From NCBI GenBank assembly GCA_000004985.1, contig GG738877.1: a stretch of 64,000 bases of DNA. One strand, written 5' to 3'. Position 1 is the first letter of the stretch. Every line of letters starts with the position of its first letter. Below, in pieces: positions 1-19,132 of this stretch. The notes beneath the pieces were generated by a model. The model was not told where the DNA came from and did not search any database. It saw nothing but the letters and a program-made list of their open reading frames with translations. The stretch comes from Naegleria gruberi. Its lineage: Eukaryota. The position numbers and the translations under genes were made by a program.

Positions 1-333
1 CAAACCCAAACCCAAAGGCAAACCCAAACCCAAACCCAAACCCAAACCCAAACCCAAACCCAAACCCAAACCCAAACCCAAACCCAAACCCAAACCCAAA
101 CCCAAACCCAAACCCAAACCCAAACCCAAATCCAAACCCAAACCCAAACCCAAACCCAAACCCAAACCCAAACCCAAACCCAAACCCAAACCCAAACCCA
201 AACCCAAACCCAAACCCAAACCCAAACCCAAACCCAAACCCAAACCCAAACCCAAACCCAAACCCAAACCCAAACCCAAACCCAAACCCAAACCCAAACC
301 CAAACCCAAACCCAAACCCAAACCCAAACCCAG
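1..333. repeat. Terminal telomeric repeat array (CCCAAA)n, G-strand TTTGGG, with a single variant at ~131
   Basis: Perfect 6-nt periodicity read directly from the sequence. The C-rich strand is on top at the left end, the orientation expected for a left chromosome terminus. Confidence 0.9.
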
Positions 334-3587: not shown

Positions 3588-4469
3588 ATGAAGCGTAATG
3601 TAACCTGTTTAAATGATTGTTACCCAACTCAATCCTTTATCTATGTATTCCTTATTGGTAATGGAAGTATTTATTTGAAAGATTCTGATTTTGCAACTTC
3701 AAAAATGAATCTGTTGGTCTTTGGAAAGACTAAGAATATGATTGAGTTTGAACAAATAAGAGCAAGTATGAATGACAGATGGGAATGTGTACATTTATGG
3801 TTAATTGGTCCAGATAACAGCAGCAATAGTATTGAGCTTGTTAGGGAGATACTAATAGGAAAGTATTCAAGTAGATTTATTGATGAAACTGAGTTGAATT
3901 TCGCCGGTCTAAACAGAGTTCTTCCTGACCAGGAAAAGTTATTAGTCCCTTCAGATATGCTCGATGACTTTATCTATAAGAAGCAACATTTCATTGATTG
4001 GACAACCAAAACTCTATTCAAGTCTGCTTATGAAAGAGGAGAAAAAGTCTTGAGACCATCATTTTCTAGTGATGTTAACTTGGTTTTACATTCAATCTAC
4101 TCTGTCGTGTATGAATACTTAGATCTTTTAAGCGATGAAGATGATACTGTTTTATTTATACGTCCAGAAAATACTGAATTAGTATTGGAGGAAATGGATT
4201 TGCTAAACGGTTTTGAGTCTACCAGCAATAAGGATCACAGCACATTAGGGTACAACATTATTGTGAGAGAAAGATTTCCTGATGACGATATGATTGAAGT
4301 CAATGTAAACAGCCCAACAACAATCATGTATATTTTCAGATACGATGAAAAGGAAAGTAACGAAACCTTTGACATTGTTAAAAAAGTGGAAATATTTGGA
4401 GAGCCAACTTGGGCAATCGGCATTAGAAAAAAGGTTATCATGACAAATACTCTGATTTTTAAACAATAA
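3588..4469 (+). CDS. Hypothetical protein. The frame stays open upstream to ~3459 without an ATG, so the 5' end is probably an unseen upstream exon
   Basis: 293-aa ORF with coding-like composition. The upstream in-frame extension (...KEIVVIGTPIVKLLEEM...) reads like coding sequence. Confidence 0.4.
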   Translation: MKRNVTCLNDCYPTQSFIYVFLIGNGSIYLKDSDFATSKMNLLVFGKTKNMIEFEQIRASMNDRWECVHLWLIGPDNSSNSIELVREILIGKYSSRFIDETELNFAGLNRVLPDQEKLLVPSDMLDDFIYKKQHFIDWTTKTLFKSAYERGEKVLRPSFSSDVNLVLHSIYSVVYEYLDLLSDEDDTVLFIRPENTELVLEEMDLLNGFESTSNKDHSTLGYNIIVRERFPDDDMIEVNVNSPTTIMYIFRYDEKESNETFDIVKKVEIFGEPTWAIGIRKKVIMTNTLIFKQ

Positions 4470-5381: not shown

Positions 5382-7985
5382 GTGTCTCACACAAGCAAAA
5401 AGAAAAAAATGGCCCAAGTGACACCTCTAGAAGTGGATGAAGTTTACGATGAAGAAGATAATTTTCTACAGGAACAAACTGTGAAGAGCTCGACCAATTG
5501 TTGTTGCTCCATCAACACAGTACTGGTAGCCATGACATCTTTAATAATCCTATTCTGTGTTTTGGTATTATCGGCTGTGTGGGTCTCAGCATTCAGTGTC
5601 CAAGTTGAGGAATTGAGTAATACGGTGAGACAAGAACACTTCGACAATATGTATTCAGCCACAACAGACTATTTGAAAACCATGTTGATAATGACAGAGT
5701 CTGTGAAATCGCAATTGTACACTGGATTTGATTTTAAGAATCAAACTCTCATAGCAGATCACACCTTTAGATTGTACAAGATGGAACGAAAGAATTTGGG
5801 AGATTGGGCACATGCCATGTTTGTTGGTTCTTCTATGGGTGATGCCTTTGGTATTTCCAGTTACAAAAACAATCCAATGTACATGAATATTACATATGGT
5901 CAAAATCAATTATATTGGTTATGTTTAAATTGGCAAAAGTTGGATTATTGCAAGAAAAACTCAACAACTCCAACAATGACTTTAGCTCCATTCAAGAATA
6001 TTCAAATTCTATACAATGCAGCAGCTTCAAATCCAGGTGGTTTTGCGTTTAGTCCTTCATTTATTGATTCAACCCATCCTTCATTGGTTTTGTTTGGTTG
6101 TGTGTCATCTTTTACACAAGGTTACATACCTCCAGGTAAAACCTTTAGTAATTATGTTTCTGTCTTGTTTGGTTCTGCAGAAATTACCAGTTTTCTAGTG
6201 GAAGCTTCATCCTCAATTCCAGGAAGTGTCACTTTTATCATTGAAAGAAACACAACGTACCTGCTCTCAACAGATAATCCTGCAAAGGCAACTGTGAAAT
6301 TCACCAATGGTACGAGTATCAGATATACAGTTAACAATTATGGTGGAAAGGTGTCAGAGATTGGAACTGAAGTAGCTAATCAACTGGGTTCTAAATTTGA
6401 TTCATTACCGTGTAACAATTACACTACACTTATTGTAAAGGGTACATACACCAGTGTCAAGAGACTTTGTACAAGTGAAGGAATTGATTGGTAAGTAGTT
6501 GAATTGAAATATTTCTCAATATTATTTAACACTAAACTTTCAGGGTATTCGTATTGAGTGTACCACAATGGAATTACATTGGATCTATGCTTATTGCCAT
6601 TATCGGTGCAATCGTTGCGTCTGTAATTATCATCTTTTTGGGAATAATCATTGCAGTCTTCTTCTCCTTCAAAATTGTAAAACCATTTAAAAACTTGATA
6701 GCTGCTTTCCAAAATGTATCGAATATGGAATTGGATGATTTGAAATTATACAAGACTTTGTTCTCTGAGGTCAAAACTCTGCAAACTCATTTCGTTGGAA
6801 TGGTTGACAAGATTAAACTTTACAGACAATTCATTCCACCTCATTTGTTAAGTAAATTGGATGATAATGAAGATATAGTACAAGAATCAGCTTCTCAAAT
6901 ATCTGTCAAGAAGGAAGAACCAAAGAGTTTCGCCCACTCCAATAGTGAAACTAAGGTTGACATGTCCAGTAGATCAATAACAACTCCAACAACAAATTCG
7001 AAACTCGATGTCAAGAAACAATTATCTGCCAAGAATATGTTCTCGTTGCACCTTGAGAAGAAACCCATTTCAGTCATTGGTGTCTGTATGCAAGGCATTA
7101 ATAGATGGTTCGTTGATCTAGCTCCTGAAGTGAGTGTTGATTTACTCGGTGGTTTATATGATCAGATTATGCAAATTTCCAAACCAAGTAATGGACAAGC
7201 ATGGAAATTTGAAAATGAAACTTTACTGATAACATTCAATGCATCTACCAATCAAAATGCTCACGAACTCAAATCCATTCAAACTGCATACACTCTATCG
7301 ACAAAACTAAAGGATTATACAAAGGTGAAACTCTTGAAGAATAATGCCTTTGCAGATCAACAAGAATTAACAGTTGACTTTTCTACAAAGATTGCAATTG
7401 CAACACAAGAGTGTCTATGTGGTAATATTGGTACTAAACAAGCAATGAGCTTTTCAATTCAAGGATCCATTCAGCAAAACATTGAAATGTTATTAGAAAC
7501 TGCTATTAGACTTGATATTTCAATTTTATTTGCATCTGAATTGAAATCAAAGGTCGATACCAAATATCAATTTAGATACATTGAAACTAAACAATTACTA
7601 GCCGACAATGTATTTACAGTTCCAGACAGATACAAACAATCGAATATTTTCAAAGAAGATTCATTGTACGAATTGGGTCTTTGTAATCAAGTGAACATGG
7701 ATGGTAAGTATTACAAAATACGTGTGAATAATATTTTAACACCTCTCTCTCAAAACTTTAGAATGGATGTATGAATTGGAAGAAAAGGAAAAGAAAGACA
7801 AGTGGAAGTTTTACAATCAAGCATGTGAATACTATTTCGATAAGGAGTATGATACAGCACTTGAAAGAATTGATGAATATTTGAAAAACTCTGCTAATAG
7901 CACTGATTTGGCAGCTCACAATTTGAGATCAGTGATAATGGATTTACAAGGGAATGCAAATTTCAAACTCAAATCTGTCAAATAA
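5382..7985 (+). CDS. Receptor-type (single-pass, HAMP/signalling-helix) adenylate/guanylate cyclase-like protein with a degenerate cyclase-homology domain. Exons 5382..6490, 6544..7703, 7762..7985
   Basis: N-terminal TM, ~300-aa extracellular region and a second TM (MLIAIIGAIVASVIIIFLGIIIAVFF). The pre-cyclase signalling helix is LKLYKTLFSEVKTLQTHFVGMVDKIKLYRQFIPPHLL, and the CHD-like region is ISVIGVCMQG...ETLLITFNAS...KIAIATQECLCGNIGTK. The metal-binding Asp positions are substituted. Introns gtaagtag..tttcag (6491-6543) and gtaagtatt..ctttag (7704-7761) join the three ORFs in frame. Confidence 0.6.
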
Positions 7986-8095: not shown

Positions 8096-10144
8096 TTATA
8101 GAGTTATTTTGAAAACTTCAATTTCCTCAACTCTGAACTGGTGACTTCCAGCCAAATAACTTTCAGTTTGTTCATTTCTTTCTTGGAATCCTTTTGGCAA
8201 TTCAAAAGCTATACCAAAATTGGATTTTGAATTGTAGTTTAAATTGCAATCACTTGAAATTGTAAAATCATGACCTGGTTTGAGTAACATAACACCAAAG
8301 GTTGGTAATAAACCTTCTTGTAAAACGGTAGCATTCCGCAATGTAAAGGAACTTCTCTTGAATTTATGAAATTGTGCTCCTGATTCCTTTACAAATTTGA
8401 AAATAAATGCTGAACTATCTTCCACAACTTCTCTTTGTTTAGGAGATTTCCATGATTTTGAAGTAAAACCACCGAATATTTGATTGTGCTCTGCCGATTT
8501 GATAATTGTCAAAGTTGCACCTTGGTTATCACACTTTGAATGAAAGTCAATTGCTTTAAAACCATCCCTTGATCCTCTGTATAATAATTGTGGAACTAAT
8601 TGAGTGCCAGTATTCGAATACAATTCTTTTGAAATGGTGTCTGAATTCGTATCATCATAATAAATTTCATTAATAATATTAGATATCAAAGTGAAAGGAA
8701 TGAAACCCTTAATATTTGTGAAAACATTACTTGTTCCTTTTAAGGAAGTTAAAAGTTGAAATTCAACTTGTTCAAAACTACTTCCTTTAAAAGAAGATAA
8801 ATCTGTCACTTCTCTCAAATCTGCATTCTTGATAGTACAATTATTGAATACATTACCATTCATCAAATTTACATTTTCCAAGTTGCAATCTCTAATATTT
8901 GAACCAGTGAAATCACAAGATTTCATAAAACTGTTTGAAAAATTACAACCACTCAATTCACAATTTTGAAAATTGGTGTTTGATAAAGTGCAATGATTGA
9001 AATCACACCCTTTCAGATTACTTCCTTGAAATTGTGTCAAATTCAAATCCATTCCACTGAAATCATATCCACAAAATTCAGTCCCACGTAGATTGGAATA
9101 TTGAAGTAAATTCTTTCGAAGGTGTTGAATGCCAAATTGTTGACATGAACCAGCAAGCAATAGTTTAAATTTAACATCAATGCTCTTTTCCACAATTCCA
9201 AACTTTAGCCAATTAAGGATTGAATAAAATACAGTTAAATCACAATCAATGAAATAAATTGGGGCATCGAATTTTGAATTAAAAGATGTTTGATAACATG
9301 GATATTCACCTGTGAACATTTTCTTGAATACATTGTCAGATTCTCTGTCATTATGAATGAAATCTCCCAATGCAACTGTAATGACAGTTCCTCTGACATT
9401 TAAGTGAATTGGTTTGTTGCAATTTTCCAATTTCTCTCTAGTATAAACTTGGTTCGCAAAGTTTTTCTCTTTCAATTCCAATTGTTGAGTCAATATTTCA
9501 TTTCTTTGATTCCATTCTTGAAGCAACGTTTCTTTCTTTTCATTGAAACCACTTGTAATTTCCTCAACAAGTTTTTTGGTATCATTAGTCAACTTTTGAT
9601 TCAATTCTTCATATTTCCTTTCCAACTCATCTGATTTTTCTTGATAATCTTGTTGTAAACTCTTGAGTTTTTCTTGATAATCACCCTCAAGTTTCCTCTT
9701 TAATTCATCTGCCTCAAAATACGCCTCCAGAAAGGAGCAATACTTTTCCTGGTGGATTTTCAATTCTCCCCTCAAGACTACATTCTTACACATTCGACAT
9801 TGAACTTCCAATTTGTCCAACATGTTTTTAATACTCTTCACACTTGAACAATTCTTCTTGAAATCTTCACCTCTACAAATTGGACAATCATGAACATTTT
9901 CAACACAGGTGGAACAGAAGGTGCTGCCACAAGATCCGTGTGAGGTTGGATCGATAAAGGGAAGAAAACAAATGGGACAAATTAATTCTTCATCAATGTT
10001 CTTGTCGATGTATATGTATTGTGGATCTAGAGAAGAGGAGGAATCAGTATTCTCTGCACTTAAAGTGCTTTCATTATGCACTTGAGAATTGACTTTCATG
10101 TATTGCAACGAGATTGTTTTTTTTCCATAATTATTTGTTTCCAA
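8096..10144 (-). CDS. Multidomain RING finger - TRAF-type zinc finger/coiled coil - BTB/POZ (KCTD/T1-type) - pentapeptide-repeat - TLDc protein (KCTD9-like core)
   Basis: CPICFLPF...CPICR RING motif. The BTB region NVRGTVITVALGDF...YFIDCDLTVFYSILNWLKFG is present. Pentapeptide repeats (CDFNHCTLSNTNFQNCELSGCNFSNS...) follow. The C-terminal TLDc signature is LLYRGSRDGFKAIDFHSKCDNQGATLTIIKSAEHNQIFGGFTSKSW. Confidence 0.75.
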   Translation of the reverse strand: METNNYGKKTISLQYMKVNSQVHNESTLSAENTDSSSSLDPQYIYIDKNIDEELICPICFLPFIDPTSHGSCGSTFCSTCVENVHDCPICRGEDFKKNCSSVKSIKNMLDKLEVQCRMCKNVVLRGELKIHQEKYCSFLEAYFEADELKRKLEGDYQEKLKSLQQDYQEKSDELERKYEELNQKLTNDTKKLVEEITSGFNEKKETLLQEWNQRNEILTQQLELKEKNFANQVYTREKLENCNKPIHLNVRGTVITVALGDFIHNDRESDNVFKKMFTGEYPCYQTSFNSKFDAPIYFIDCDLTVFYSILNWLKFGIVEKSIDVKFKLLLAGSCQQFGIQHLRKNLLQYSNLRGTEFCGYDFSGMDLNLTQFQGSNLKGCDFNHCTLSNTNFQNCELSGCNFSNSFMKSCDFTGSNIRDCNLENVNLMNGNVFNNCTIKNADLREVTDLSSFKGSSFEQVEFQLLTSLKGTSNVFTNIKGFIPFTLISNIINEIYYDDTNSDTISKELYSNTGTQLVPQLLYRGSRDGFKAIDFHSKCDNQGATLTIIKSAEHNQIFGGFTSKSWKSPKQREVVEDSSAFIFKFVKESGAQFHKFKRSSFTLRNATVLQEGLLPTFGVMLLKPGHDFTISSDCNLNYNSKSNFGIAFELPKGFQERNEQTESYLAGSHQFRVEEIEVFKITL

Positions 10145-10291
10145 ACTTGGGAGATTCCTTCTTTAGAAAGTAGTTACATACAATCAGTTGTTTAAGATTT
10201 TAATTTAGACTAAATTCCAGTATTTCTTTTTGGGAAAGGGTTAATAAACCTTAAATTACTGCTCCAAATTCAAAGAGAGAGAAATAACAAT

Positions 10292-11837
10292 TTATTTCCG
10301 TACATTATTAAAATCATAAAGGGAAGAGGGTGGTGTTTGCTGATTATCAGCTCTACGAGGCATTAACCTCTTTCGGGACAAACCACTTCCTCCTCTAGAA
10401 GACCCCCGAGGAGCTTCCTTAGAATTGACAGTGGACTTGTCCACACTAGAGTTTACTCCTGGTTTATACCTTGAGTAAGAGAACAGCTTTGCTCCATTGG
10501 CTGTACCAGCAGGAGGAGGATTACCAGGAGATCGTGTTGAAGCATTATTATATACTGGTTGTTGAGGTTGTTGAATAGGGTAGGGAGGATAGGATTTTAC
10601 GCCCTGATATTGTACATTCAAGGTAGGGCCTTTGTTTCCTGTTAGAGGTGATGAATCTTCAGTATTACTATTATTATTACTATTTGTTTGTTCTATTGAA
10701 AATAAGGAAAACAAGATTAAAATCAATACTTACTCTTTCCAGATTGAACTCTACTATTAATGTTATACTTGAGAGGTATTGGAGCTGAAATTCCAACTTG
10801 GAAGAAGGGATATTGAAGAGCTTGACTAGCTGTTGGCCTTTTCATTGGATCATAACTCAACAAATCAGTCATTAGCTGAATGGCTTCTTGACTTGCATTT
10901 TGAATGATGGATTCCAAAGGTGTAGGAACGAATTGAGGGAATTTCATTCCCATACTAGCAGCTAATTTAAGTCCTTCTTCCCATGTATCCCTAGTGGGTG
11001 TGCCTAGAACTGAGCAAATTTTGAAAATTTCATCAGGTTCACTTCTACCAGGGAAGAGTGGCCTAAATGTGTACAACTCTGCCATAATAACACCTACTGC
11101 CCACATGTCTATTGGTGAGTTGTAGTTTTGTGATTTCATAAGAACCTCAGGTGCTCTGTACCATCTAGTAGAAACATACTCGGTAAATGGTGGTCTGGAT
11201 CGTGTTTCCTTAGCAAGACCAAAGTCAGCAATCTTTACAGTATCTCTATGAACAAGAAGATTTTCAGGTTTCATATCACGATGAAAGTATCCAGTTTTGT
11301 GCATGTAAGCCAAGCCCTGCAGGACTTGATAAATAATATTTCTAATCTTGGATTCTGAAAACAATTTGTCTCTGTCTTTCATCACTTGATAGAGGTTGGC
11401 CTCCATATATTCAAAGACAAAATACAATTCCTGATTTTCTCTAATGACTTCTTTCAATTTAATAATATTCGGATGGTTAAGTTTTCTCAATGTCTAAAAA
11501 GATCAAATTTAAAATCTTCCAAAGAGTTGAAACAAACCTGTACTTCTTTTAATTTGATACATTCTTCCCAACTGGAGTATGTTCGCTTAATCTTCTTAAT
11601 GGCAACCTATTATTTTGTTATTATTATTGTTGTTGTTGAATATTAAATATTGTGATGATGAAAGAGAAGGGAAAATATTGAGGTGAAGCGGAGGATGTAT
11701 TCAATATTATCAAATAATTAATTGATGATGGAAATAAATATTGTACATACCACTTCTCCAGTCTCTTTATTAACTGCCCTAACAACGCTTCCGTAGGCAC
11801 CTGCTCCAATCAACTGGTTCAACTTGAATCTATTCAT
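10292..11837 (-). CDS. CMGC serine/threonine kinase of the MOK/MAK/ICK (RCK) type with a TEY activation-loop motif. Exons on the minus strand are 11751..11837, 11538..11606, 10734..11493 and 10292..10692
   Basis: Exon 1 is [29 protein letters not shown] (Gly loop) with a GTATGT donor. Exon 2 is [23 protein letters not shown]. Exon 3 carries [15 protein letters not shown] and [14 protein letters not shown]. Exon 4 is an N/P-rich tail. All junctions keep the frame and have GT..AG boundaries. Confidence 0.75.
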
Positions 11838-12112
11838 TGTAGGCAGGAGGAAACAAGCGATGTAGTTGCGTAATTTTTTTTATTGTAGTTTTAGAAAATA
11901 TAAGGTGTAACCGAATAAGCGGGAAAATGACCCTTCTAAACGTTAAGAAGTTCAACAAAATTCGTCTAATAACAGGTACTTTTGGGAGATATTAATAAAA
12001 GAAATGAAAACATATTGGAAAACATCAATGAACAATATCACTTCAACTACTTTTTCCTTATCTATTTCACCACAGTAAAAATAGCAAACAAAATAAATTA
12101 CAAAATTGAATT

Positions 12113-14326
12113 TTACTTCTTGCTACTTTGCTTTGGAGATGGGGAGGAGGTGGCAGGTTTTGGAACTCTGTTCAACTTGCTTTCAAGCTTTTTATAGTAT
12201 GGAGCATTCTTAATGATTGGAAGGTATGGTTTAACATTATTGTTAAATCTTGCGAATTGATTGGCATCTGAGATGGAAATTGCTGTTTGAACAACATAGT
12301 TACCGAATGAGTCTTGTAAGAGGGCTGAGAGATTTCTATCTTCAAGAACTTCCTCAATCATGGTATTCTTGACATTTTCATTACCAATTCTGAGACACTT
12401 TTCAATAACGTTGGAACTGAACTTGTTGATAGACAATGAAGCAATACTACCATAAAATCTAGCAATAATCTTTTCATTAATGGAATCATCACCAAGATCA
12501 AGTACATATTGAACAACATAGTTACCAAATGGGTTTTGAATAAGTGTATGAGCATTGGCAATAACCTCCTTAATAAGCATCATTCTTTGTGATTCAGCGG
12601 CATGATCAATACATCTTTGCAAGACACAACATCCGTGTTTGTGAGTAGCAACTTCAACACATCTACCAGCAACAGCATTGTAAATAAATTGCTTATTTTC
12701 TGGAATTAATTGTTGAAGGCAACGTTGAATAACGTGGTTGCCATTCAAATCCTTAATAAGAGGAACAACAGAATCCTTGAGAGCTTCAATAATTTCTCCA
12801 ATTTGGTCTTGAGTGGTGAGACATTCAATCAACTTTTGAACAGCTCTGGTACCATGCATATTCATGGAAATATTGATGAGATCCTTAGAGACTGCTCTAA
12901 TAATGAGAGTCTTATGTTCATTGGTACAATGTTCTACCAATTTTTGACACAAATAATTTCCGAATGGATCTGTCATTAATTCAACAATATGATCATAAAT
13001 TTCATCAAATACCATTTGCAATCCTTGTTCACCATCAGTAATCTTCTTTTGGAGGAATCTACATCCATATTGATCCTTTGCTAATTTATAAACCTTTCCG
13101 ACAGCATCAGTCATTGAGCTTAATTTACCAAAAGCAGACTTCTTTGAACTCTTTTCGTCATCATCAGAGGTATCAACCTTTTCCTTCTTTTTCTTTCCTT
13201 CCTTCTTCTTGTTGGAAATTGTTGGAGTGGAGGCACCTGATGAAGAGTCAGAAGTTGGAGAACTTGAACCACTATTAGCTTGTTCCACAACATTATTTGA
13301 AGCAACAATGGTTTTAGCACTAGTGTTATTAACTGGAACTCCCATATTACTAGCAACAATGGTGTTGAAAGCAATAGGAGGAGAAGCAACCTCTTGCTTT
13401 TGTGGACTGACTGGTAAATGATTTGGAGGTATAACTTGATTGAAATTTCCTCCTGTTGGCATTGGTGTTGGTTTTTGAATAAAACCAGTAGTAGGATTAT
13501 GTTGTTGAATCAATTGTTGTTGTTGTTGCATAATTTGTTGTCCGTAGAATTCTAATTGTTGTTGTTGTCTGGATAGAGCTTCTTCCAATTGCTTATTTTG
13601 AAGATATAAACGTTGTTGTTCTAGAGTAGGAAGTTGTTGTTGTGCTTGTGGTGGGTAATGTTGCTGCATATGTTGTTGCATCATGTTTTGATTGTCCATT
13701 CCTGGAGGAAAACCTTGTTGTTGTTGCATTGCCCAAGCATTCTCCATACCATAAGCATTTTGATAATTATTTGGCATCATTTGTTGATAAGGATACATGT
13801 TTGGAGCTGTTGATGAAGAAACACCCATATTCATACCATTAGGAGGACCATACATATTTCCTTTTGGTTTTCCGAACATTTCATATGGTGAGAGAAATAA
13901 TGGATTAGCTTCAATTGGAGTAGGTAAGCTATCCTTGTTTGAATAGGAATTATAAAAGTTAGCATAATCAGATTCACAACGAATATCTCCAAACAAGTGT
14001 GAATAACGTGATTGGGTAGCAAATATATTGTTAGTGTCCAATTCCATAGCAGGAGGAGCACTAATAGCTCTCTGAATAGATAAACCAAAATATTCATTAT
14101 TATTTGGTGTGGTATTACGTTTAATTTCACTTCCAATTGGTGCCTGGTTTCTAGATGGAGATGATTGTACATTGGATGAACCCCATCCTACAGCTTGTTC
14201 ATTATTGTTGTACAAGTTATTGCTTGGTGTGGAATGAAATGGGTCATTGTTGGTGTTATTGGAAATGATGGATTGAAGAGTTCTGACTGTGTTATTCAGT
14301 CCGTTATTGTTGGTAGTAGATGACAT
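12113..14326 (-). CDS. Pumilio-family (PUF) RNA-binding protein with a long N/Q-rich N-terminal region and eight C-terminal PUF repeats
   Basis: Repeated FGNYVVQ / HGCRFLQKKI / NHVIQRCL / HGCCVLQRCI motifs. The likely start is MSSTTNNN at 14326. Confidence 0.85.
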   Translation of the reverse strand: MSSTTNNNGLNNTVRTLQSIISNNTNNDPFHSTPSNNLYNNNEQAVGWGSSNVQSSPSRNQAPIGSEIKRNTTPNNNEYFGLSIQRAISAPPAMELDTNNIFATQSRYSHLFGDIRCESDYANFYNSYSNKDSLPTPIEANPLFLSPYEMFGKPKGNMYGPPNGMNMGVSSSTAPNMYPYQQMMPNNYQNAYGMENAWAMQQQQGFPPGMDNQNMMQQHMQQHYPPQAQQQLPTLEQQRLYLQNKQLEEALSRQQQQLEFYGQQIMQQQQQLIQQHNPTTGFIQKPTPMPTGGNFNQVIPPNHLPVSPQKQEVASPPIAFNTIVASNMGVPVNNTSAKTIVASNNVVEQANSGSSSPTSDSSSGASTPTISNKKKEGKKKKEKVDTSDDDEKSSKKSAFGKLSSMTDAVGKVYKLAKDQYGCRFLQKKITDGEQGLQMVFDEIYDHIVELMTDPFGNYLCQKLVEHCTNEHKTLIIRAVSKDLINISMNMHGTRAVQKLIECLTTQDQIGEIIEALKDSVVPLIKDLNGNHVIQRCLQQLIPENKQFIYNAVAGRCVEVATHKHGCCVLQRCIDHAAESQRMMLIKEVIANAHTLIQNPFGNYVVQYVLDLGDDSINEKIIARFYGSIASLSINKFSSNVIEKCLRIGNENVKNTMIEEVLEDRNLSALLQDSFGNYVVQTAISISDANQFARFNNNVKPYLPIIKNAPYYKKLESKLNRVPKPATSSPSPKQSSKK

Positions 14327-15343: not shown

Positions 15344-17200
15344 ATGTTGCAACAACAACTCAATCAGACGAACCATTGCACTGTAGTGTTGCATCTAGAT
15401 TTGTACTTTTCATCCAATTTACTCTCCACTAAAATACAATCCATTCCTCTCCGATATAAATATGACTTGATCATGAAACCAATTTTGAAATATTACAATT
15501 CCGATAATGATGATTATGATTATGATGATGATTTCGATATTAACGATCCAATTTGCCTCCTTCAAGGACTTTTATTAAAAATTGATGTTATTCGAGATAA
15601 AAGGTATATTTACGATCAAATAATAGAGTACAAATGGGTTGCTTGTAGTTTTAGAGAGGATTTTGGGTTATTGAACGATAGAGATTTGGCCATGAAACAT
15701 GCAAGTATTGGCATTATTGTTGAGGAATTTAACAATGACAGAGAAATTGTAATGAATGCTGTGAAAGAAACAGGAAATGGACTTTCGTATGCTTCAGAAG
15801 AATTGAGGAATGATTTTGAATTTGTGAGTGAATTGTTGGAACATGTTAATGTTTTGAATGAGGCATCAGAGGAATTGAGAGATAATAAGGAACTTGTAAT
15901 GTCACTTGTAAAACATTGTGGAGAGGCTCTTGAATATGCTTCTGATCGATTGAGAAATGATTTTGATGTTGTGTTGGCAGCTGTCAAACAAAATGGACGA
16001 GCTCTCGCATTCACAACAATAGAACTACGGAGCAATAAGGAAATTATATTGGCAGCTTTGCAATCATTTTCGCATGCATGTAAAATTGCAATATTGGACT
16101 CATTTACAAATGATAGAGATTTTATGTTTAAAGTATCTTTAGAGGATGTGTATATACTAAGGAAAGCATCTCAAGAAATTAGAAACGATAGAGAAATATT
16201 CCTCAATGCAGTTAAAATTTCTCCATACATATTCAGGGATACTTCAGATGAATTGAGGAATGATAGAGAACTAGCCATCTTGGCAATACAATCGGAGCCA
16301 TCAATGTTAGAATATGCATCAGATAATTTGAAAGATGATGAGGAAATTGTTGCATTGGCACTTTCTTCTGATGGACGTGCAATTAGACATGTATCAGACA
16401 GATTAAGAAATGATGTTGAATTTCTTCAGAAAATATTCCATAGTAGTAAGAGTGGGACAATATTGAAATATATTCCAGAAATACTCAAAAGTGATAGAGA
16501 TATCGTATTGGAATCTGTTAAACGTGATGGATACAATTTGGAACATGCCTCAAATGAACTGAAACTTGATAGAGAAATAGTATGGGAAGCAGTGAAATCA
16601 GCAACCACAGCTATACAATTTGTACCTCAAGAATTATTAAGAGAAGCCTTTATTCATGCACTTCAATTCCGTGGTGAACATTGGGACTATGATTTTTTCG
16701 AATTTGCACCTCCTGAATTCAAGAACGACAGAGAAATAGCATTAACATATGTCAAATATCATCAACGAGCACTATCCCATTTAAGCAATCAGTTTAGAGC
16801 TGATAGAGAAATAGTGTTGGAAGCTGTAAAACATTTTGGACCAAACGTACTTGAATTGGTAGATGCTCAATTCAAAAACGATATTGAAATAGTCAACTTG
16901 GCAAGAAGTAAAGGAGCTCTTACAAAATTATCAATTGAAGACCATTCAAACAGAGAAAAAGTTCTTCAAGCTTTCAAAGATGAAATAGACATTGAATATC
17001 TTACAACCTCTTTGAAGAATGACAGAGAGATTGCCATTGGATGTGTAAAGCAAAATGGATTTTGGTTACAGTATTTACCTTACAAATTTAGAAGTGATAG
17101 AGAAATAGTATTACTTTCATTTAGAGATACTAAAAGTTTAAATCACATGTCTTTGAAGTTGAGAAATGATAAGGAAATTTTAGAAAAATCGAAAAGGTGA
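15344..17200 (+). CDS. DUF4116-type tandem-repeat protein (~24-aa repeats, xELRNDREIVLxAVKQNGxALxYAS). The alternative start MKPILKYY is at 15473
   Basis: More than 15 consecutive repeats with an invariant (L/F)RNDRE(I/L) core are read directly in the ORF. Confidence 0.7.
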   Translation: MLQQQLNQTNHCTVVLHLDLYFSSNLLSTKIQSIPLRYKYDLIMKPILKYYNSDNDDYDYDDDFDINDPICLLQGLLLKIDVIRDKRYIYDQIIEYKWVACSFREDFGLLNDRDLAMKHASIGIIVEEFNNDREIVMNAVKETGNGLSYASEELRNDFEFVSELLEHVNVLNEASEELRDNKELVMSLVKHCGEALEYASDRLRNDFDVVLAAVKQNGRALAFTTIELRSNKEIILAALQSFSHACKIAILDSFTNDRDFMFKVSLEDVYILRKASQEIRNDREIFLNAVKISPYIFRDTSDELRNDRELAILAIQSEPSMLEYASDNLKDDEEIVALALSSDGRAIRHVSDRLRNDVEFLQKIFHSSKSGTILKYIPEILKSDRDIVLESVKRDGYNLEHASNELKLDREIVWEAVKSATTAIQFVPQELLREAFIHALQFRGEHWDYDFFEFAPPEFKNDREIALTYVKYHQRALSHLSNQFRADREIVLEAVKHFGPNVLELVDAQFKNDIEIVNLARSKGALTKLSIEDHSNREKVLQAFKDEIDIEYLTTSLKNDREIAIGCVKQNGFWLQYLPYKFRSDREIVLLSFRDTKSLNHMSLKLRNDKEILEKSKR

Positions 17201-17584
17201 ACTATCTGATCTCAATGGGCATGAAATGTCAACGAGATTTAAATCATCGTTAAAAACGAGGAAGAAATCTTGTCCGGTTTGTTGGAAATTATTGGTGTTG
17301 ATTAAATGGTTTCATTAGATTGAAGTCATTTATTGAAAAGAGGTCTATAATAATCCATCTAGTTATCTTTTGATGGTAAATTTGACAGAATTCATGCAGA
17401 TTTGGTTTCCACTTTTGTAAATCCTTTCTTTGAATGGTGCAAAAGTGAGGAATAAAAGATTGAATGATGAACACTCTCGTGAACGTAAATCACCTCACGT
17501 ACTGTGGTGATGTGACACCGACAAGTTCCTTCTACAATTTCATTCTCATCTGAAGATTTGAAATTGCAAAATGTATTAAACAGC

Positions 17585-19132
17585 TCAAGTATAAGAGGAT
17601 AATAGAGGCAATCTATAAACCTTTGAAACAGAGATCAAATAAAATGGATCCATTCCTACCTTTGCCAAAAGTGGTTTGAGAGCATTAAGCTTTACTCTAT
17701 CAATAACTTCACCAACTTGTTTTCTTCCAAACATGCTTGCCTTATTATCCAAAAATACCACCAACTTGTTATATGATGCCAGTAATTCTCCTTTAACTGA
17801 GAGATACTCAGGTGAGGCAAGAGCAGCTGCCCTGTTGCCTTTGTAAATCTTCTTTTCAATAGCTCTGAACTTGACCTTCTTGTAATGGAATCTACGAGTA
17901 ACTGTATCCATGAGTAGATCCACCAATTGCTCATCAAAGCCCTCTTCATCATTCTTTGAAGAACTTGATTTAATAACCGAAGCTCTGCTAGCATATCTGA
18001 GAGTGGAGAGGGTCTCACTTGCATTCTTCTCAACTGGACTGCAAGTAGCTACCATAATAGTTTTGGCTCGACCACCAAGAGTTGATTGAAGCATATTAGT
18101 CAGTACTGAATCTCTGAAAGGAACGTGAGCTTTTTTGATCCTTTCTTTAGCTTCATTCTTGTCCTTAAGTTTGGAAACTTGTTCAGAGAGTTCGGCCAAT
18201 TTGTTAATTACTCGTCCTAAATGAAGTAAACTGGTATTAATTGCAGTTCCTTCATCTCGTTCATCTTTACATTTGGCAATTTGACCTGTCTTTTCACTAC
18301 CAGCCAAGTCAACAAGATTGATTTGAGATTTGATAATTGTAGCATGATTTTCATCTGGTTGAAACTCTAAAGAAATTGTAAAGACTGCATGAGATCTTGA
18401 AGAGACATCATTCATGGCTGTTGCTCGAGTACTTCTATTGGAAAATCCACTGGTAATCAGTTTTCTAGCATCCTTCCAATTTTTAACATGTTTGTAACCA
18501 ATATTAGAGTGATAGTCGTAATATTGTCGATTCTTGGATCTGACCAACAAGTCACAAACCTTCTCATTATAAATCTCTACAAATCTACAAGAAACATGAA
18601 AATAGGAATACCTCCTCACAGATGTAAATATTTCCTTAACAACTCTTGGAATGATACCATGTTGTGAAAAGTCAGAATCTATAAATTCATGAATCGTATA
18701 AATTAAATCGTATGGCAAGATAAAGAAGAGTGGTTTCAGTGCCTCAAATAGCATTCCCTTAATTGCAGAAGGTTTATCAGAAGCTTCTTCCAATGCAGCA
18801 TAGAGATCTTCACCAAGCATTGTGTGAGTTTTACCACTCGATGTTTGTCCATATGCAAATAAACAACAATTGATACCACTCACTGCATTCTCCACAATGA
18901 TCTTTCCCAAATCATGATAAATTACCGATTGTGGAGTGTTTCCACCATAGACATGATCAAATTTAAATTCATCAACCACATGTTTGGTTCTATTATCAAT
19001 TGTTTTGGTAGCTCTCTTCACTTGGAGAGTATGTTCATCCTTTCTGATGGTGACAACCTTTTGTTTCTTCAATCCGACCATTTCCTCATATTTAGGTGGT
19101 CGAATTCTCACAGCAACTGTGATTGGTTCCAT
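17585..19132 (-). CDS. Kinesin-like motor protein (N-terminal motor domain). The C-terminal end is uncertain
   Basis: P-loop GQTSSGKTHTM, switch motifs SSRSHAVF and LVDLAGSE, and HVPFRDSVLT. Confidence 0.85.
   Translation of the reverse strand: MEPITVAVRIRPPKYEEMVGLKKQKVVTIRKDEHTLQVKRATKTIDNRTKHVVDEFKFDHVYGGNTPQSVIYHDLGKIIVENAVSGINCCLFAYGQTSSGKTHTMLGEDLYAALEEASDKPSAIKGMLFEALKPLFFILPYDLIYTIHEFIDSDFSQHGIIPRVVKEIFTSVRRYSYFHVSCRFVEIYNEKVCDLLVRSKNRQYYDYHSNIGYKHVKNWKDARKLITSGFSNRSTRATAMNDVSSRSHAVFTISLEFQPDENHATIIKSQINLVDLAGSEKTGQIAKCKDERDEGTAINTSLLHLGRVINKLAELSEQVSKLKDKNEAKERIKKAHVPFRDSVLTNMLQSTLGGRAKTIMVATCSPVEKNASETLSTLRYASRASVIKSSSSKNDEEGFDEQLVDLLMDTVTRRFHYKKVKFRAIEKKIYKGNRAAALASPEYLSVKGELLASYNKLVVFLDNKASMFGRKQVGEVIDRVKLNALKPLLAKVGMDPFYLISVSKVYRLPLLSSYT

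What the first reader, a model, noticed from the sequence alone, without database searches (positions are those of the whole stretch)
8096..10144. An unusual domain fusion: RING + TRAF-type Zn finger/coiled coil + KCTD-type BTB + pentapeptide repeats + TLDc
The BTB-pentapeptide core is KCTD9-like. In this protein it is preceded by a RING finger and TRAF-like zinc finger and followed by a TLDc domain (LLYRGSRDGFKAIDFHSKCDNQGATLTIIKSAEHNQIFGGFTS...). The product would combine E3 ligase, Cullin-3 adaptor and TLDc functions in one 682-aa polypeptide. I am not aware of this exact architecture being described. It may be a lineage-specific signalling E3.
Basis: partly seen in the sequence, partly recalled or inferred. 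Interest (0 to 1): 0.6.

Follow-up and report, generated by a model that had tools for sequence, protein, structure and literature searches.

The report
Naegleria RING–BTB–pentapeptide–TLDc ligase-like protein
The ORF is a real, single-exon Naegleria gruberi gene that is already in the databases as an unnamed "predicted protein"; its six-part domain fusion is genuine and belongs to a mix-and-match gene family found only in Naegleria-like amoebae, so it is a modest curiosity rather than a new kind of system.

Summary
Window 8096-10144 (-) is one uninterrupted ORF, about 1e-23 to 1e-26 by chance. From its first ATG (10099) it encodes 667 aa, 100% identical to N. gruberi XP_002675575.1 / NAEGRDRAFT_69162 / D2VJU3, "predicted protein".

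All claimed domains hold:
- **TLDc and pentapeptide repeats:** both pass Pfam thresholds directly.
- **RING plus C2HC (TRAF/LNX-type) zinc finger:** sub-threshold or absent in Pfam. The family profile hits LNX2 at 6.8e-15, and an AF2 model (pLDDT 90) superposes on LNX1/2 (TM 0.79) and TRAF6 (0.68).
- **KCTD-type BTB:** supported by the family profile (KCTD15/1/9, about 1e-10) and by fold (KCTD1, TM 0.77).
- **Coiled coil:** a roughly 100-residue helix links the zinc finger to the BTB.

The same collinear architecture occurs in N. gruberi paralogs, N. fowleri, N. lovaniensis and environmental contigs. Shuffled versions also exist (no pentapeptide, no BTB, no TLDc, RGS instead of TLDc), including in Willaertia. 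This rules out a fusion artefact.

No paper describing the architecture was found. The most likely function is a self-assembling RING E3 ligase whose pentapeptide and TLDc modules pick targets. Cul3 recruitment and V-ATPase binding are untested inferences.

One oddity: the canonical RING histidine is replaced in all 16 members, with an invariant histidine just upstream. Interest is modest.

The parts
8096..10099 (-). Complete single-exon CDS (667 aa plus TAA stop at 8096-8098). Identical to N. gruberi XP_002675575.1 / NAEGRDRAFT_69162.
10163..10165 (-). In-frame TAA that bounds the reading frame upstream. The TTG at 10144 is only the mechanical ORF start.
9704..10021 (-). RING plus zinc-finger module (aa 27-132), LNX/TRAF6-like fold.
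   Evidence: Family profile against PDB: LNX2 5din 6.8e-15, LNX1, TRAF5/6. AF2 pLDDT 89.8. Foldseek: LNX1 5h7r TMq 0.79 at rmsd 1.9, TRAF6 about 0.68.
9869..9988 (-). RING finger (aa 38-77), pattern C-x2-C-x9-H-x2-C-x4-C-x2-C-x6-C-x2-C. The canonical ligand-4 His is replaced by Ser, and an invariant His54 sits upstream. Ile43, Pro73 and Arg76 occupy the usual E2-contact and linchpin positions.
9737..9799 (-). C2HC zinc finger (aa 101-121), C-x2-C-x11-H-x4-C, of TRAF/LNX type.
   Evidence: All four ligands are invariant in the 15-sequence alignment A5; one further relative, P0074, has Tyr at the first Cys. It aligns to the LNX and TRAF6 zinc finger. Pfam zf-TRAF is not hit.
9422..9730 (-). Long E/K/L/Q-rich helix (aa 124-226), a probable coiled coil.
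   Evidence: A single continuous helix in the AF2 model, with block pLDDT 62 (aa 121-130), then 74-87, falling to 77 (aa 211-220) and 73 (aa 221-230). Hydrophobic residues fill 0.5-0.75 of heptad a/d positions over aa 124-170 and are weaker beyond.
9107..9418 (-). KCTD/T1-type BTB domain (aa 228-331).
   Evidence: Family profile against PDB: KCTD15 6.7e-11, KCTD1 1.4e-10, KCTD9 3.3e-10. Foldseek: KCTD1 5bxb TMt 0.77 at rmsd 2.4. Pfam BTB_2 in 10/12 relatives but not in this protein itself.
8765..9094 (-). Pentapeptide-repeat beta-helix (aa 336-445, 22 pentapeptide units in register, about 5.5 coils).
   Evidence: Pfam PF00805 3.7e-18, with PF13599 and PF13576 also above cut-off. Five-residue register. 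Foldseek: MfpA, Qnr, AlbG.
8597..8758 (-). Low-confidence linker (aa 448-501).
   Evidence: AF2 pLDDT below 50.
8099..8605 (-). TLDc domain (aa 499-667).
   Evidence: Pfam PF07534 3.7e-20, 73 bits against a cut-off of 24.5. Family profile against PDB: Skywalker, mEAK7, OXR2, NCOA7. Foldseek: Skywalker, NCOA7, Oxr1 and mEAK7 TLDc, TMt 0.62-0.72.

Best explanation
This is the Naegleria gruberi gene NAEGRDRAFT_69162. It is one intron-less gene encoding a 667-aa multidomain protein, and it belongs to a modular, expanded gene family found only in heteroloboseans. The most likely function is a self-assembling RING-type E3 ubiquitin ligase. The N-terminal RING plus C2HC zinc finger (LNX/TRAF6-like) would recruit an E2~ubiquitin. 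The roughly 100-residue coiled coil and the KCTD-type BTB would oligomerise the protein and so cluster the RINGs. The C-terminal pentapeptide beta-helix and TLDc domain would be the target-recognition end. Shown here: the gene, its identity, each domain's family and fold, collinear conservation, and the family's modularity. Inferred: E3 activity, oligomerisation, and that the pentapeptide and TLDc modules select substrates. One candidate target is the V-ATPase, by analogy with the mammalian and yeast TLDc proteins studied so far.
For: **Gene reality and identity.** A 682-codon open frame bounded by an upstream TAA; the 667-aa product from the first ATG is 100% identical to XP_002675575.1.

**One gene, not two.** The same order RING-ZnF-helix-BTB-pentapeptide-TLDc is found in N. 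gruberi P0001 and P0002, N. fowleri P0003 (a single 3300-bp exon), N. lovaniensis P0004 and the environmental protein P0006.

**RING-ZnF.** Profile hits to LNX2/LNX1/TRIM21/TRAF5/TRAF6. A confident model (pLDDT 89.8) superposes on LNX1/2 (TM 0.79) and on TRAF6-Ubc13 complex chains (about 0.68). Ile43 (CPIC), Pro73 and Arg76 sit at the positions RING E3s use for E2 contact and the linchpin (sequence; their role is established knowledge).

**BTB.** KCTD15/1/9 at about 1e-10 and fold TM 0.77 to pentameric KCTD1.

**Pentapeptide and TLDc.** Both are above Pfam cut-offs and are matched by fold. Equivalents of NCOA7 G815 and G845 are invariant in the family (PMC8608904).

**Modularity points to a constant engine with interchangeable ends.** The RING-ZnF module occurs with BTB-TLDc, with TLDc alone, with BTB-pentapeptide alone, and with BTB-pentapeptide-RGS.

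**BTB-TLDc pairing recurs elsewhere.** BTB-BACK-TLDc in Bombyx Bmmp and Drosophila CG7102; BTB-TLDc in Rhizophagus.
Against: There is no biochemical or expression evidence of any kind.

The RING lacks the canonical ligand-4 histidine in all 16 family members (N/S/M/Y instead). Zinc site 2 therefore depends on an unverified substitute, the invariant upstream His54, and the RING could be inactive.

Pfam RING models are all below their cut-offs, and zf-TRAF and BTB_2 do not hit this protein directly.

The full-length model has pTM 0.36, so nothing is known about inter-domain geometry or oligomeric state.

The TLDc-V-ATPase link is extrapolated from opisthokont proteins with about 15-20% identity. 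The conserved glycines are mainly structural (PMC8608904), and the S817 equivalent is not conserved.
Confidence: 0.55

Rival explanations
1. The protein is mainly a Cullin-3 substrate adaptor of the KCTD9 kind. The BTB recruits Cul3-Rbx1, the pentapeptide and TLDc domains bind the substrate, and the protein's own RING is accessory (auto-regulation or a second E2) or vestigial.
For: The BTB is KCTD-type and KCTD9 is among the best matches (3.3e-10). The BTB-pentapeptide core is collinear with a genuine KHA-BTB_2-pentapeptide (KCTD9-type) protein. The non-canonical RING would fit a reduced catalytic role. Family members without a RING (BTB-TLDc, BTB-pentapeptide-TLDc) exist.
Against: The best BTB matches, KCTD15 and KCTD1, are from my own knowledge reported not to bind Cul3, so KCTD-type alone does not predict Cul3 binding. 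The RING-ZnF module is the most conserved part of the family (14 invariant columns across Naegleria and Willaertia) and keeps E2-contact-type residues. That argues against a vestigial domain. Family members also exist with RING-ZnF-TLDc and no BTB (P0074 cluster).
Confidence: 0.2
2. The protein is a non-enzymatic oligomeric scaffold or regulator. For example, it could be a TLDc-type V-ATPase regulator whose RING-like and BTB modules serve only for assembly.
For: The canonical RING His is missing in every member. All characterised TLDc proteins act by binding rather than catalysis, for example on the V-ATPase (PMC8608904, PMC8804929, PMC9263379). Pentapeptide proteins are typically binding or mimicry modules (Foldseek matches to MfpA and Qnr).
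Against: Eight potential zinc ligands are strictly conserved. The fold is predicted confidently and matches active E3s (LNX1/2, TRAF6-Ubc13). The hydrophobic E2-contact Ile, the Pro and the linchpin Arg are retained in this protein.
Confidence: 0.12
3. The architecture is an artefact: two or more neighbouring genes read through as one ORF, or a mis-assembly near the scaffold end.
For: The gene lies about 6 kb from telomere-type repeats and from an assembly gap at 1061-1801. Some paralogue gene models are clearly truncated (P0005 starts inside the BTB, P0010 ends inside the pentapeptide repeats).
Against: There is no stop codon in 2 kb of AT-rich DNA (p about 1e-23 to 1e-26) and no gap inside the gene. 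The reference annotation has the identical single model. The same collinear architecture, linkers included, is seen in three other species or contigs, with single-exon structure in N. fowleri.
Confidence: 0.02

Closest known systems
KCTD9 (KHA-BTB-pentapeptide repeat Cul3 adaptor)
   Same: A T1/KCTD-type BTB is followed directly by a pentapeptide-repeat beta-helix. The KCTD9 BTB structure 5bxh matches the family profile at 3.3e-10. The alignment with a KHA-BTB_2-pentapeptide protein is collinear.
   Different: There is no KHA domain. The N-terminus is instead RING-ZnF-coiled coil, and a TLDc domain is appended. Identity is only about 21%. Cul3 binding is untested.
LNX1/LNX2 Zn-RING-Zn module and TRAF6/TRAF5 RING-ZnF1
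   Same: These are the best sequence-profile hits (LNX2 6.8e-15; TRAF5 2e-8; TRAF6 6.5e-6) and the best fold hits (LNX1 TM 0.79, rmsd 1.9 A over 108 columns; TRAF6 about 0.68). They cover both the RING and the following C2HC finger. As in TRAFs, a coiled coil follows.
   Different: There are no PDZ domains (LNX) and no MATH/TRAF-C domain (TRAF). The canonical 'CGH' histidine is replaced, and an invariant His lies upstream of ligand 3. Only one TRAF-type finger is present. Pfam zf-TRAF is not hit.
TLDc proteins (OXR1, NCOA7, TBC1D24/Skywalker, mEAK7/TLDC1, yeast Oxr1p/Rtc5p)
   Same: The C-terminal TLDc domain is well above the Pfam cut-off. The fold matches Skywalker, NCOA7, Oxr1 and mEAK7. 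Equivalents of NCOA7 G815 and G845 are conserved.
   Different: None of those proteins carries a RING, BTB or pentapeptide module. Identity is 15-20%. The S817 equivalent is not conserved. V-ATPase binding is unknown here.
BTB-BACK-TLDc proteins (Bombyx Bmmp, Drosophila CG7102) and fungal BTB-TLDc proteins (Rhizophagus)
   Same: A BTB domain and a TLDc domain sit in one polypeptide.
   Different: Those proteins use the classical PF00651 BTB, with BACK, rather than the KCTD/T1 type. They have no RING, zinc finger, coiled coil or pentapeptide repeats.
N. gruberi paralogues and heterolobosean relatives (e.g. N. gruberi P0001 and P0002, N. fowleri FDP41_001763, N. lovaniensis C9374_011707)
   Same: Identical six-part architecture at about 34-42% local BLASTP identity, or 39-52% over aligned columns of the family alignment.
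   Different: The number of pentapeptide coils varies widely (proteins of 631 to 1099 aa). All are likewise uncharacterised.

Membership tests
RING-type E3 ligase (RING-HC) | Eight cross-brace zinc ligands C-x2-C...C-x-H-x2-C-x2-C...C-x2-C | tested here: inconclusive
   Seven canonical ligand positions are invariant. The ligand-4 His is N/S/M/Y in 16/16 members, and an invariant His lies 1-6 residues before ligand 3, so eight potential ligands remain.
RING-type E3 ligase (RING-HC) | RING fold | tested here: met
   AF2 pLDDT 89.8. Foldseek: LNX1/2 TM 0.79, TRAF6 0.68, TRIM21 rmsd 1.4 over 62 columns. Profile against PDB down to 6.8e-15. Pfam RING models are sub-threshold (best 20.4 against 27.9 bits).
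RING-type E3 ligase (RING-HC) | E2-dependent ubiquitin transfer | not testable with these tools
   Only indirect evidence: Ile43, Pro73 and Arg76 occupy the E2-contact and linchpin positions.
TRAF family | RING followed by TRAF-type C2HC zinc finger(s) and a coiled coil | tested here: met
   C-x2-C-x11-H-x4-C is invariant in the 15-sequence alignment A5. The module aligns to TRAF5/6 RING-ZnF1. Helix 124-226 follows. Pfam zf-TRAF itself gives no hit.
TRAF family | C-terminal MATH/TRAF-C domain | tested here: not met
   No MATH hit at E<=1. The C-terminal half is BTB-pentapeptide-TLDc.
LNX family | PDZ domains after the Zn-RING-Zn module | tested here: not met
   No PDZ hit. Only the N-terminal module resembles LNX.
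KCTD family / KCTD9 | T1/KCTD-type BTB domain | tested here: met
   Family profile: KCTD15/1/9/16/17/5 at 7e-11 to 1e-6. Fold: KCTD1 TMt 0.77. Pfam BTB_2 in 10/12 relatives, though not in this protein alone.
KCTD family / KCTD9 | Pentapeptide repeats C-terminal to the BTB (KCTD9-specific) | tested here: met
   PF00805 3.7e-18 at aa 336-445, immediately after the BTB.
KCTD family / KCTD9 | N-terminal KHA domain (KCTD9-specific) | tested here: not met
   No PF11834 hit. The KCTD9-type comparator P0050 has it.
KCTD family / KCTD9 | Cul3 binding | not testable with these tools
   No discriminating sequence signature is available, and the best matches include KCTD1 and KCTD15.
Pentapeptide repeat proteins | Tandem A(D/N)LXX pentapeptides forming a right-handed quadrilateral beta-helix | tested here: met
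   Three Pfam pentapeptide models are above cut-off. The register is regular. AF2 pLDDT is 84-90 over aa 331-400. Foldseek: MfpA, Qnr, AlbG.
TLDc domain proteins | TLDc domain (PF07534) sequence and fold | tested here: met
   73 bits against a cut-off of 24.5. Profile hits to Skywalker, mEAK7, OXR2 and NCOA7. Foldseek TMt 0.62-0.72.
TLDc domain proteins | Conserved residues needed for the NCOA7 TLDc-V-ATPase interaction (G815, S817, G845; PMC8608904) | tested here: inconclusive
   The G815 and G845 equivalents are invariant (DG, FGG). The S817 equivalent is K/N/T. G896, L926 and E938 were not covered by the printed alignments. These residues are largely structural.
TLDc domain proteins | Binding to the V-ATPase | not testable with these tools
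   Inference from PMC8608904, PMC8804929 and PMC9263379 only.

The most novel reading that the evidence does not exclude
The family is a TRIM/TRAF-like, rapidly diversifying E3 system of heterolobosean amoebae. A conserved RING-ZnF 'engine' with a relocated zinc-ligand histidine is combined by domain shuffling with variable sensor ends (pentapeptide helices of 5 to more than 40 coils, TLDc, RGS). Its role would be to ubiquitinate organelle or pathogen-associated targets, possibly the V-ATPase of the contractile vacuole or the phagolysosome. That would be the first link between TLDc recognition and ubiquitination. The evidence does not exclude this. Copies cluster locally in N. fowleri and Willaertia, this copy is subtelomeric in N. 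gruberi, and paralogues group by species on the TLDc tree.
Probability: 0.15. Interest if true: 0.6.

Novelty: new variant of a known kind. Interest (0 to 1): 0.3.

Why it matters
If the inferred mechanism holds, this family would show TLDc and pentapeptide domains serving as target-recognition modules of a RING E3. TLDc proteins are otherwise known only as non-enzymatic V-ATPase binders. The family would then be a natural experiment linking ubiquitination to TLDc targets. It would also give an example of a RING in which the ligand-4 histidine has moved in the sequence.

As it stands, this is an uncharacterised but already catalogued Naegleria gene built from well-known domains. It is useful for annotating the "predicted proteins" of Naegleria and Willaertia, including the pathogen N. 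fowleri, but it does not open a long-standing question.

Tried and rejected
- **Direct Pfam scan for BTB and zf-TRAF.** No hit at E<=1 on the window protein. BTB was recovered only through family profiles and fold. zf-TRAF was never hit, in any relative.
- **Single-sequence TLDc against PDB.** Only a weak Skywalker hit (E 0.13). The family profile was needed.
- **Exact look-up of the window protein and of P0002 in the contig index.** Neither is on record. The identity was found instead through a 96%-identical 81-aa fragment whose cluster contains XP_002675575.1.
- **Search for a second copy in the window.** None found.
- **Profile search with the RING-ZnF module, to see what else it is fused to.** Only two extra short proteins, one from Willaertia and one environmental.
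- **Literature searches.** TLDc+pentapeptide+BTB, TLDc+Naegleria, TLDc+BTB+domain architecture, and the gene's accession numbers all returned zero papers. Naegleria+pentapeptide repeat and Naegleria+BTB+RING returned nothing relevant.
- **Gene-fusion or assembly artefact.** Rejected on the grounds given under the rival explanations.
- **Membership of TRAF, LNX or KCTD9 proper.** Rejected because MATH, PDZ and KHA domains respectively are absent.
- **Zinc-site geometry around His54.** Could not be examined because model coordinates are not exposed.
Full report
**1. The observation**

The ORF listing returns one ORF at 8096..10144 on the minus strand, 682 codons counted from a TTG. Reading the DNA shows an in-frame TAA seven codons upstream (10163-10165). 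The first in-frame ATG is codon 16 at 10099, which gives a 667-aa product. With the local or window base composition, the probability of 682 stop-free codons is about 2e-26 or 4e-23. There are no Ns or gaps in the gene and no second copy in the window.

**2. Identity and source**

The first homology search gave only about 42% identical Naegleria proteins, and the exact protein was not in the contig index. The exhaustive representative search turned up an 81-aa fragment that is 96% identical to the C-terminus (P0084). Its 90% cluster contains a 667-aa N. gruberi protein: EFC42831.1 / XP_002675575.1 / NAEGRDRAFT_69162 / UniProt D2VJU3, "predicted protein". That protein is 667/667 identical to the window protein.

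The window is therefore N. gruberi NEG-M DNA. The reference annotation carries exactly the single-exon model derived here.

The window begins with telomere-type (CCCAAA)n arrays at 1-332 and 1803-2236, separated by an N gap, so the gene is subtelomeric. Neighbours are an unannotated convergent gene downstream (7767-7985 +) and a protein kinase upstream (10292-11490 -). Further out lie PUF, DUF4116 and kinesin genes.

**3. Domain by domain** (667-aa numbering)

- **TLDc.** Pfam PF07534 scores 3.7e-20, 73 bits against a cut-off of 24.5. The family profile hits the solved TLDc domains of Skywalker/TBC1D24, mEAK7, zebrafish OXR2 and NCOA7 (8e-7 to 5e-4). The full-length AF2 model matches Skywalker, NCOA7, Oxr1 and mEAK7 TLDc structures (TMt 0.62-0.72).
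- **Pentapeptide repeats.** PF00805 scores 3.7e-18, and two further pentapeptide models are above cut-off. The 22 units at aa 336-445 are in a clean five-residue register. They are modelled as a beta-helix with pLDDT 84-90 over aa 331-400, which matches MfpA, Qnr and AlbG.
- **BTB.** There is no Pfam hit on this protein. A 12-sequence family profile hits KCTD15, KCTD1, KCTD9, KCTD16, KCTD17 and KCTD5 BTB structures (6.7e-11 to 1e-6). The model matches pentameric KCTD1 (TMt 0.77, rmsd 2.4). Pfam BTB_2 is found in 10 of 12 relatives.
- **RING plus zinc finger.** Pfam RING models are all below their cut-offs (best zf-RING_5, 5e-4, 20.4 against 27.9 bits). zf-TRAF is not hit in any relative. The family profile nevertheless hits LNX2 (6.8e-15) and LNX1 (8.7e-12) across both the RING and the following finger. 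It also hits TRIM21, TRAF5 (2e-8), TRAF6 (6.5e-6), RNF125 and SIAH1. A separate AF2 model of aa 25-134, built with a 15-sequence alignment, has pLDDT 89.8 and pTM 0.73. It superposes on LNX1 5h7r (TMq 0.79, rmsd 1.9 A, 108 columns), LNX2 5din and TRAF6/TRAF5 RING-ZnF1 (about 0.68).
- **Coiled coil.** Residues 124-226 form one continuous helix. Block pLDDT is 74-87 over most of its length and 62-77 at the two ends. The helix is E/L/K/Q-rich, with heptad-like hydrophobic spacing mainly over aa 124-170.
- **Linker.** Residues 448-501 are low-confidence.

**4. A non-canonical RING**

In all 16 full RING-ZnF modules collected (N. gruberi, N. fowleri, N. lovaniensis, Willaertia magna, environmental), the histidine of the canonical "C-G-H-x-F-C" motif is Asn, Ser, Met or Tyr. 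This is zinc ligand 4, and it is aligned column for column with LNX2 CGHTFC. An invariant His lies 1-6 residues upstream of ligand 3.

Eight potential ligands are thus retained: C-x2-C-x9-H-x2-C-x4-C-x2-C-x6-C-x2-C. I infer that the upstream His substitutes in zinc site 2.

In this protein Ile43 (CPIC), Pro73 and Arg76 occupy the positions that RING E3s use to contact the E2 and as the "linchpin" (sequence). Their roles are established knowledge, not tested here.

**5. One gene or a fusion?**

The same collinear architecture, helix and linkers included, is found in several relatives. These are N. gruberi P0001 (927 aa) and P0002 (710 aa), N. fowleri FDP41_001763 (1099 aa), N. lovaniensis C9374_011707 (929 aa) and environmental P0006 (631 aa). 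The N. fowleri gene is a single 3300-bp exon. Together with the identical reference model, this makes an artefactual fusion very unlikely. Transcript data were not available.

**6. The family**

HMMs built from the three domain alignments were run over all retrieved proteins and checked with Pfam. They show a modular family with these arrangements:

- RING-ZnF-BTB-pentapeptide-TLDc: this gene, P0001 to P0004, P0006, and the truncated P0063 and P0009.
- RING-ZnF-BTB-TLDc without pentapeptide repeats: N. gruberi P0065; Willaertia P0109 and P0185.
- RING-ZnF-TLDc: the N. fowleri and N. lovaniensis cluster of P0074.
- BTB-(pentapeptide)-TLDc: P0005, P0008, P0066, P0070, P0071, P0078, P0139, P0216.
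- RING-ZnF-BTB-pentapeptide without TLDc: P0007.
- RING-ZnF-BTB-pentapeptide with an RGS domain in place of TLDc: P0012.

At least 14 N. gruberi proteins carry family-type modules. Named relatives come only from Naegleria and Willaertia. More distant hits are generic pentapeptide proteins or multi-TLDc proteins of other protists.

N. fowleri members FDP41_001760, 001763, 001771, 001772, 001796, 001798 and 001807 lie on one contig. Willaertia ABK040_001416, 001430 and 001432 also lie on one contig. A crude NJ tree of the TLDc domains, without bootstrap, groups N. gruberi copies apart from N. fowleri and N. lovaniensis copies. That suggests lineage-specific expansion.

**7. Mechanism**

Shown: an LNX/TRAF6-like RING-ZnF, a long helix, a KCTD-type BTB, a pentapeptide beta-helix and a TLDc domain in one polypeptide. 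The N-terminal module is the most conserved part, and the C-terminal modules are interchangeable.

Inferred: the protein is a self-assembling RING E3. Coiled coil and BTB oligomerisation would cluster RINGs, as in TRAF6, TRIM and LNX, which work as RING dimers or oligomers (established knowledge). The pentapeptide and TLDc end would bind targets.

The five mammalian TLDc proteins tested bind the V-ATPase (PMC8608904), and yeast Oxr1p and mammalian mEAK7 do so as well (PMC8804929, PMC9263379). The V-ATPase is therefore a candidate target. The evidence here is limited to fold and to conservation of the G815 and G845 equivalents. The S817 equivalent is not conserved.

The rivals are a Cul3 adaptor with an accessory RING, a non-catalytic scaffold, and an artefact. 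They are set out separately with their tests.

**8. Comparison and novelty**

The BTB-pentapeptide core works like, and is collinear with, KCTD9, but it lacks the KHA domain. The N-terminus resembles LNX and TRAF, but it lacks PDZ and MATH domains. BTB-TLDc pairings are known in insects (BTB-BACK-TLDc; Bmmp and CG7102) and in fungi, but those use the classical BTB.

No paper in the searchable library combines TLDc with pentapeptide and BTB, or TLDc with Naegleria, or cites this gene's accessions. The sequence itself has been public as part of the N. gruberi NEG-M reference annotation (RefSeq, GenBank, UniProt).

I therefore rate it a new, undescribed variant built from known kinds of domains. 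It is real and lineage-restricted, but only moderately interesting without functional data.

Noticed in passing
window 1-332 and 1803-2236 (gap of N at 1061-1801): Two arrays of the hexamer CCCAAA (G-strand TTTGGG), 55 and 72 copies at 96-98% matches. They are separated by about 730 bp of unique AT-rich DNA and a scaffold gap. This looks like a chromosome end with either an interstitial telomeric array or a scaffolding join of two telomeric contigs. The gene of interest is about 6 kb inside.
   Followed up: partly
window 9869-9988 (-) and family alignment A5: The canonical RING ligand-4 histidine (CGH) is replaced by N/S/M/Y in all 16 family members, while an invariant His lies 1-6 residues before ligand 3. 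This may be a relocated zinc ligand; the geometry was not checked.
   Followed up: partly
L001 (N. fowleri VFQX01000027.1) 10001-13300 and 17259-18350: The N. fowleri full-length relative is a single exon. A RING-only family fragment (206 aa, FDP41_001760) followed by a 139-aa ORF lies 4 kb downstream. At least seven family members sit on this one contig, and three Willaertia members likewise share one contig. These are local clusters with apparent gene decay and shuffling.
   Followed up: partly
P0012 (environmental contig, 765 aa): A distant relative has RING-ZnF-coiled coil-BTB-pentapeptide followed by an RGS domain (sub-threshold: PF00615 3.4e-4, 21.4 bits against a cut-off of 23.9) instead of TLDc. 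The C-terminal module is therefore swappable.
   Followed up: partly
P0005 and P0010 (N. gruberi gene models): P0010 ends inside the pentapeptide repeats on a 7.5-kb contig, and P0005 starts inside the BTB. Their overlapping parts are nearly identical. They are probably truncated models or assembly duplicates of one further full-length family gene.
   Followed up: no
window 10292-11490 (-): The upstream neighbour is a protein kinase (Pkinase 4.3e-63) split over two adjacent reading frames (10723-11490 and 10292-10726). The N-terminal part of the kinase domain is missing from the ORF, which implies introns or a frame change.
   Followed up: no
window 15344-17200 (+): A 618-aa protein made of 12 DUF4116 repeats (Pfam 1.4e-130). 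It has no known function.
   Followed up: no
window 3588-4469, 5382-6494, 6554-7774, 7767-7985 (+): Four sizeable ORFs between the telomeric repeats and the gene of interest have no Pfam hit at E<=0.001.
   Followed up: no
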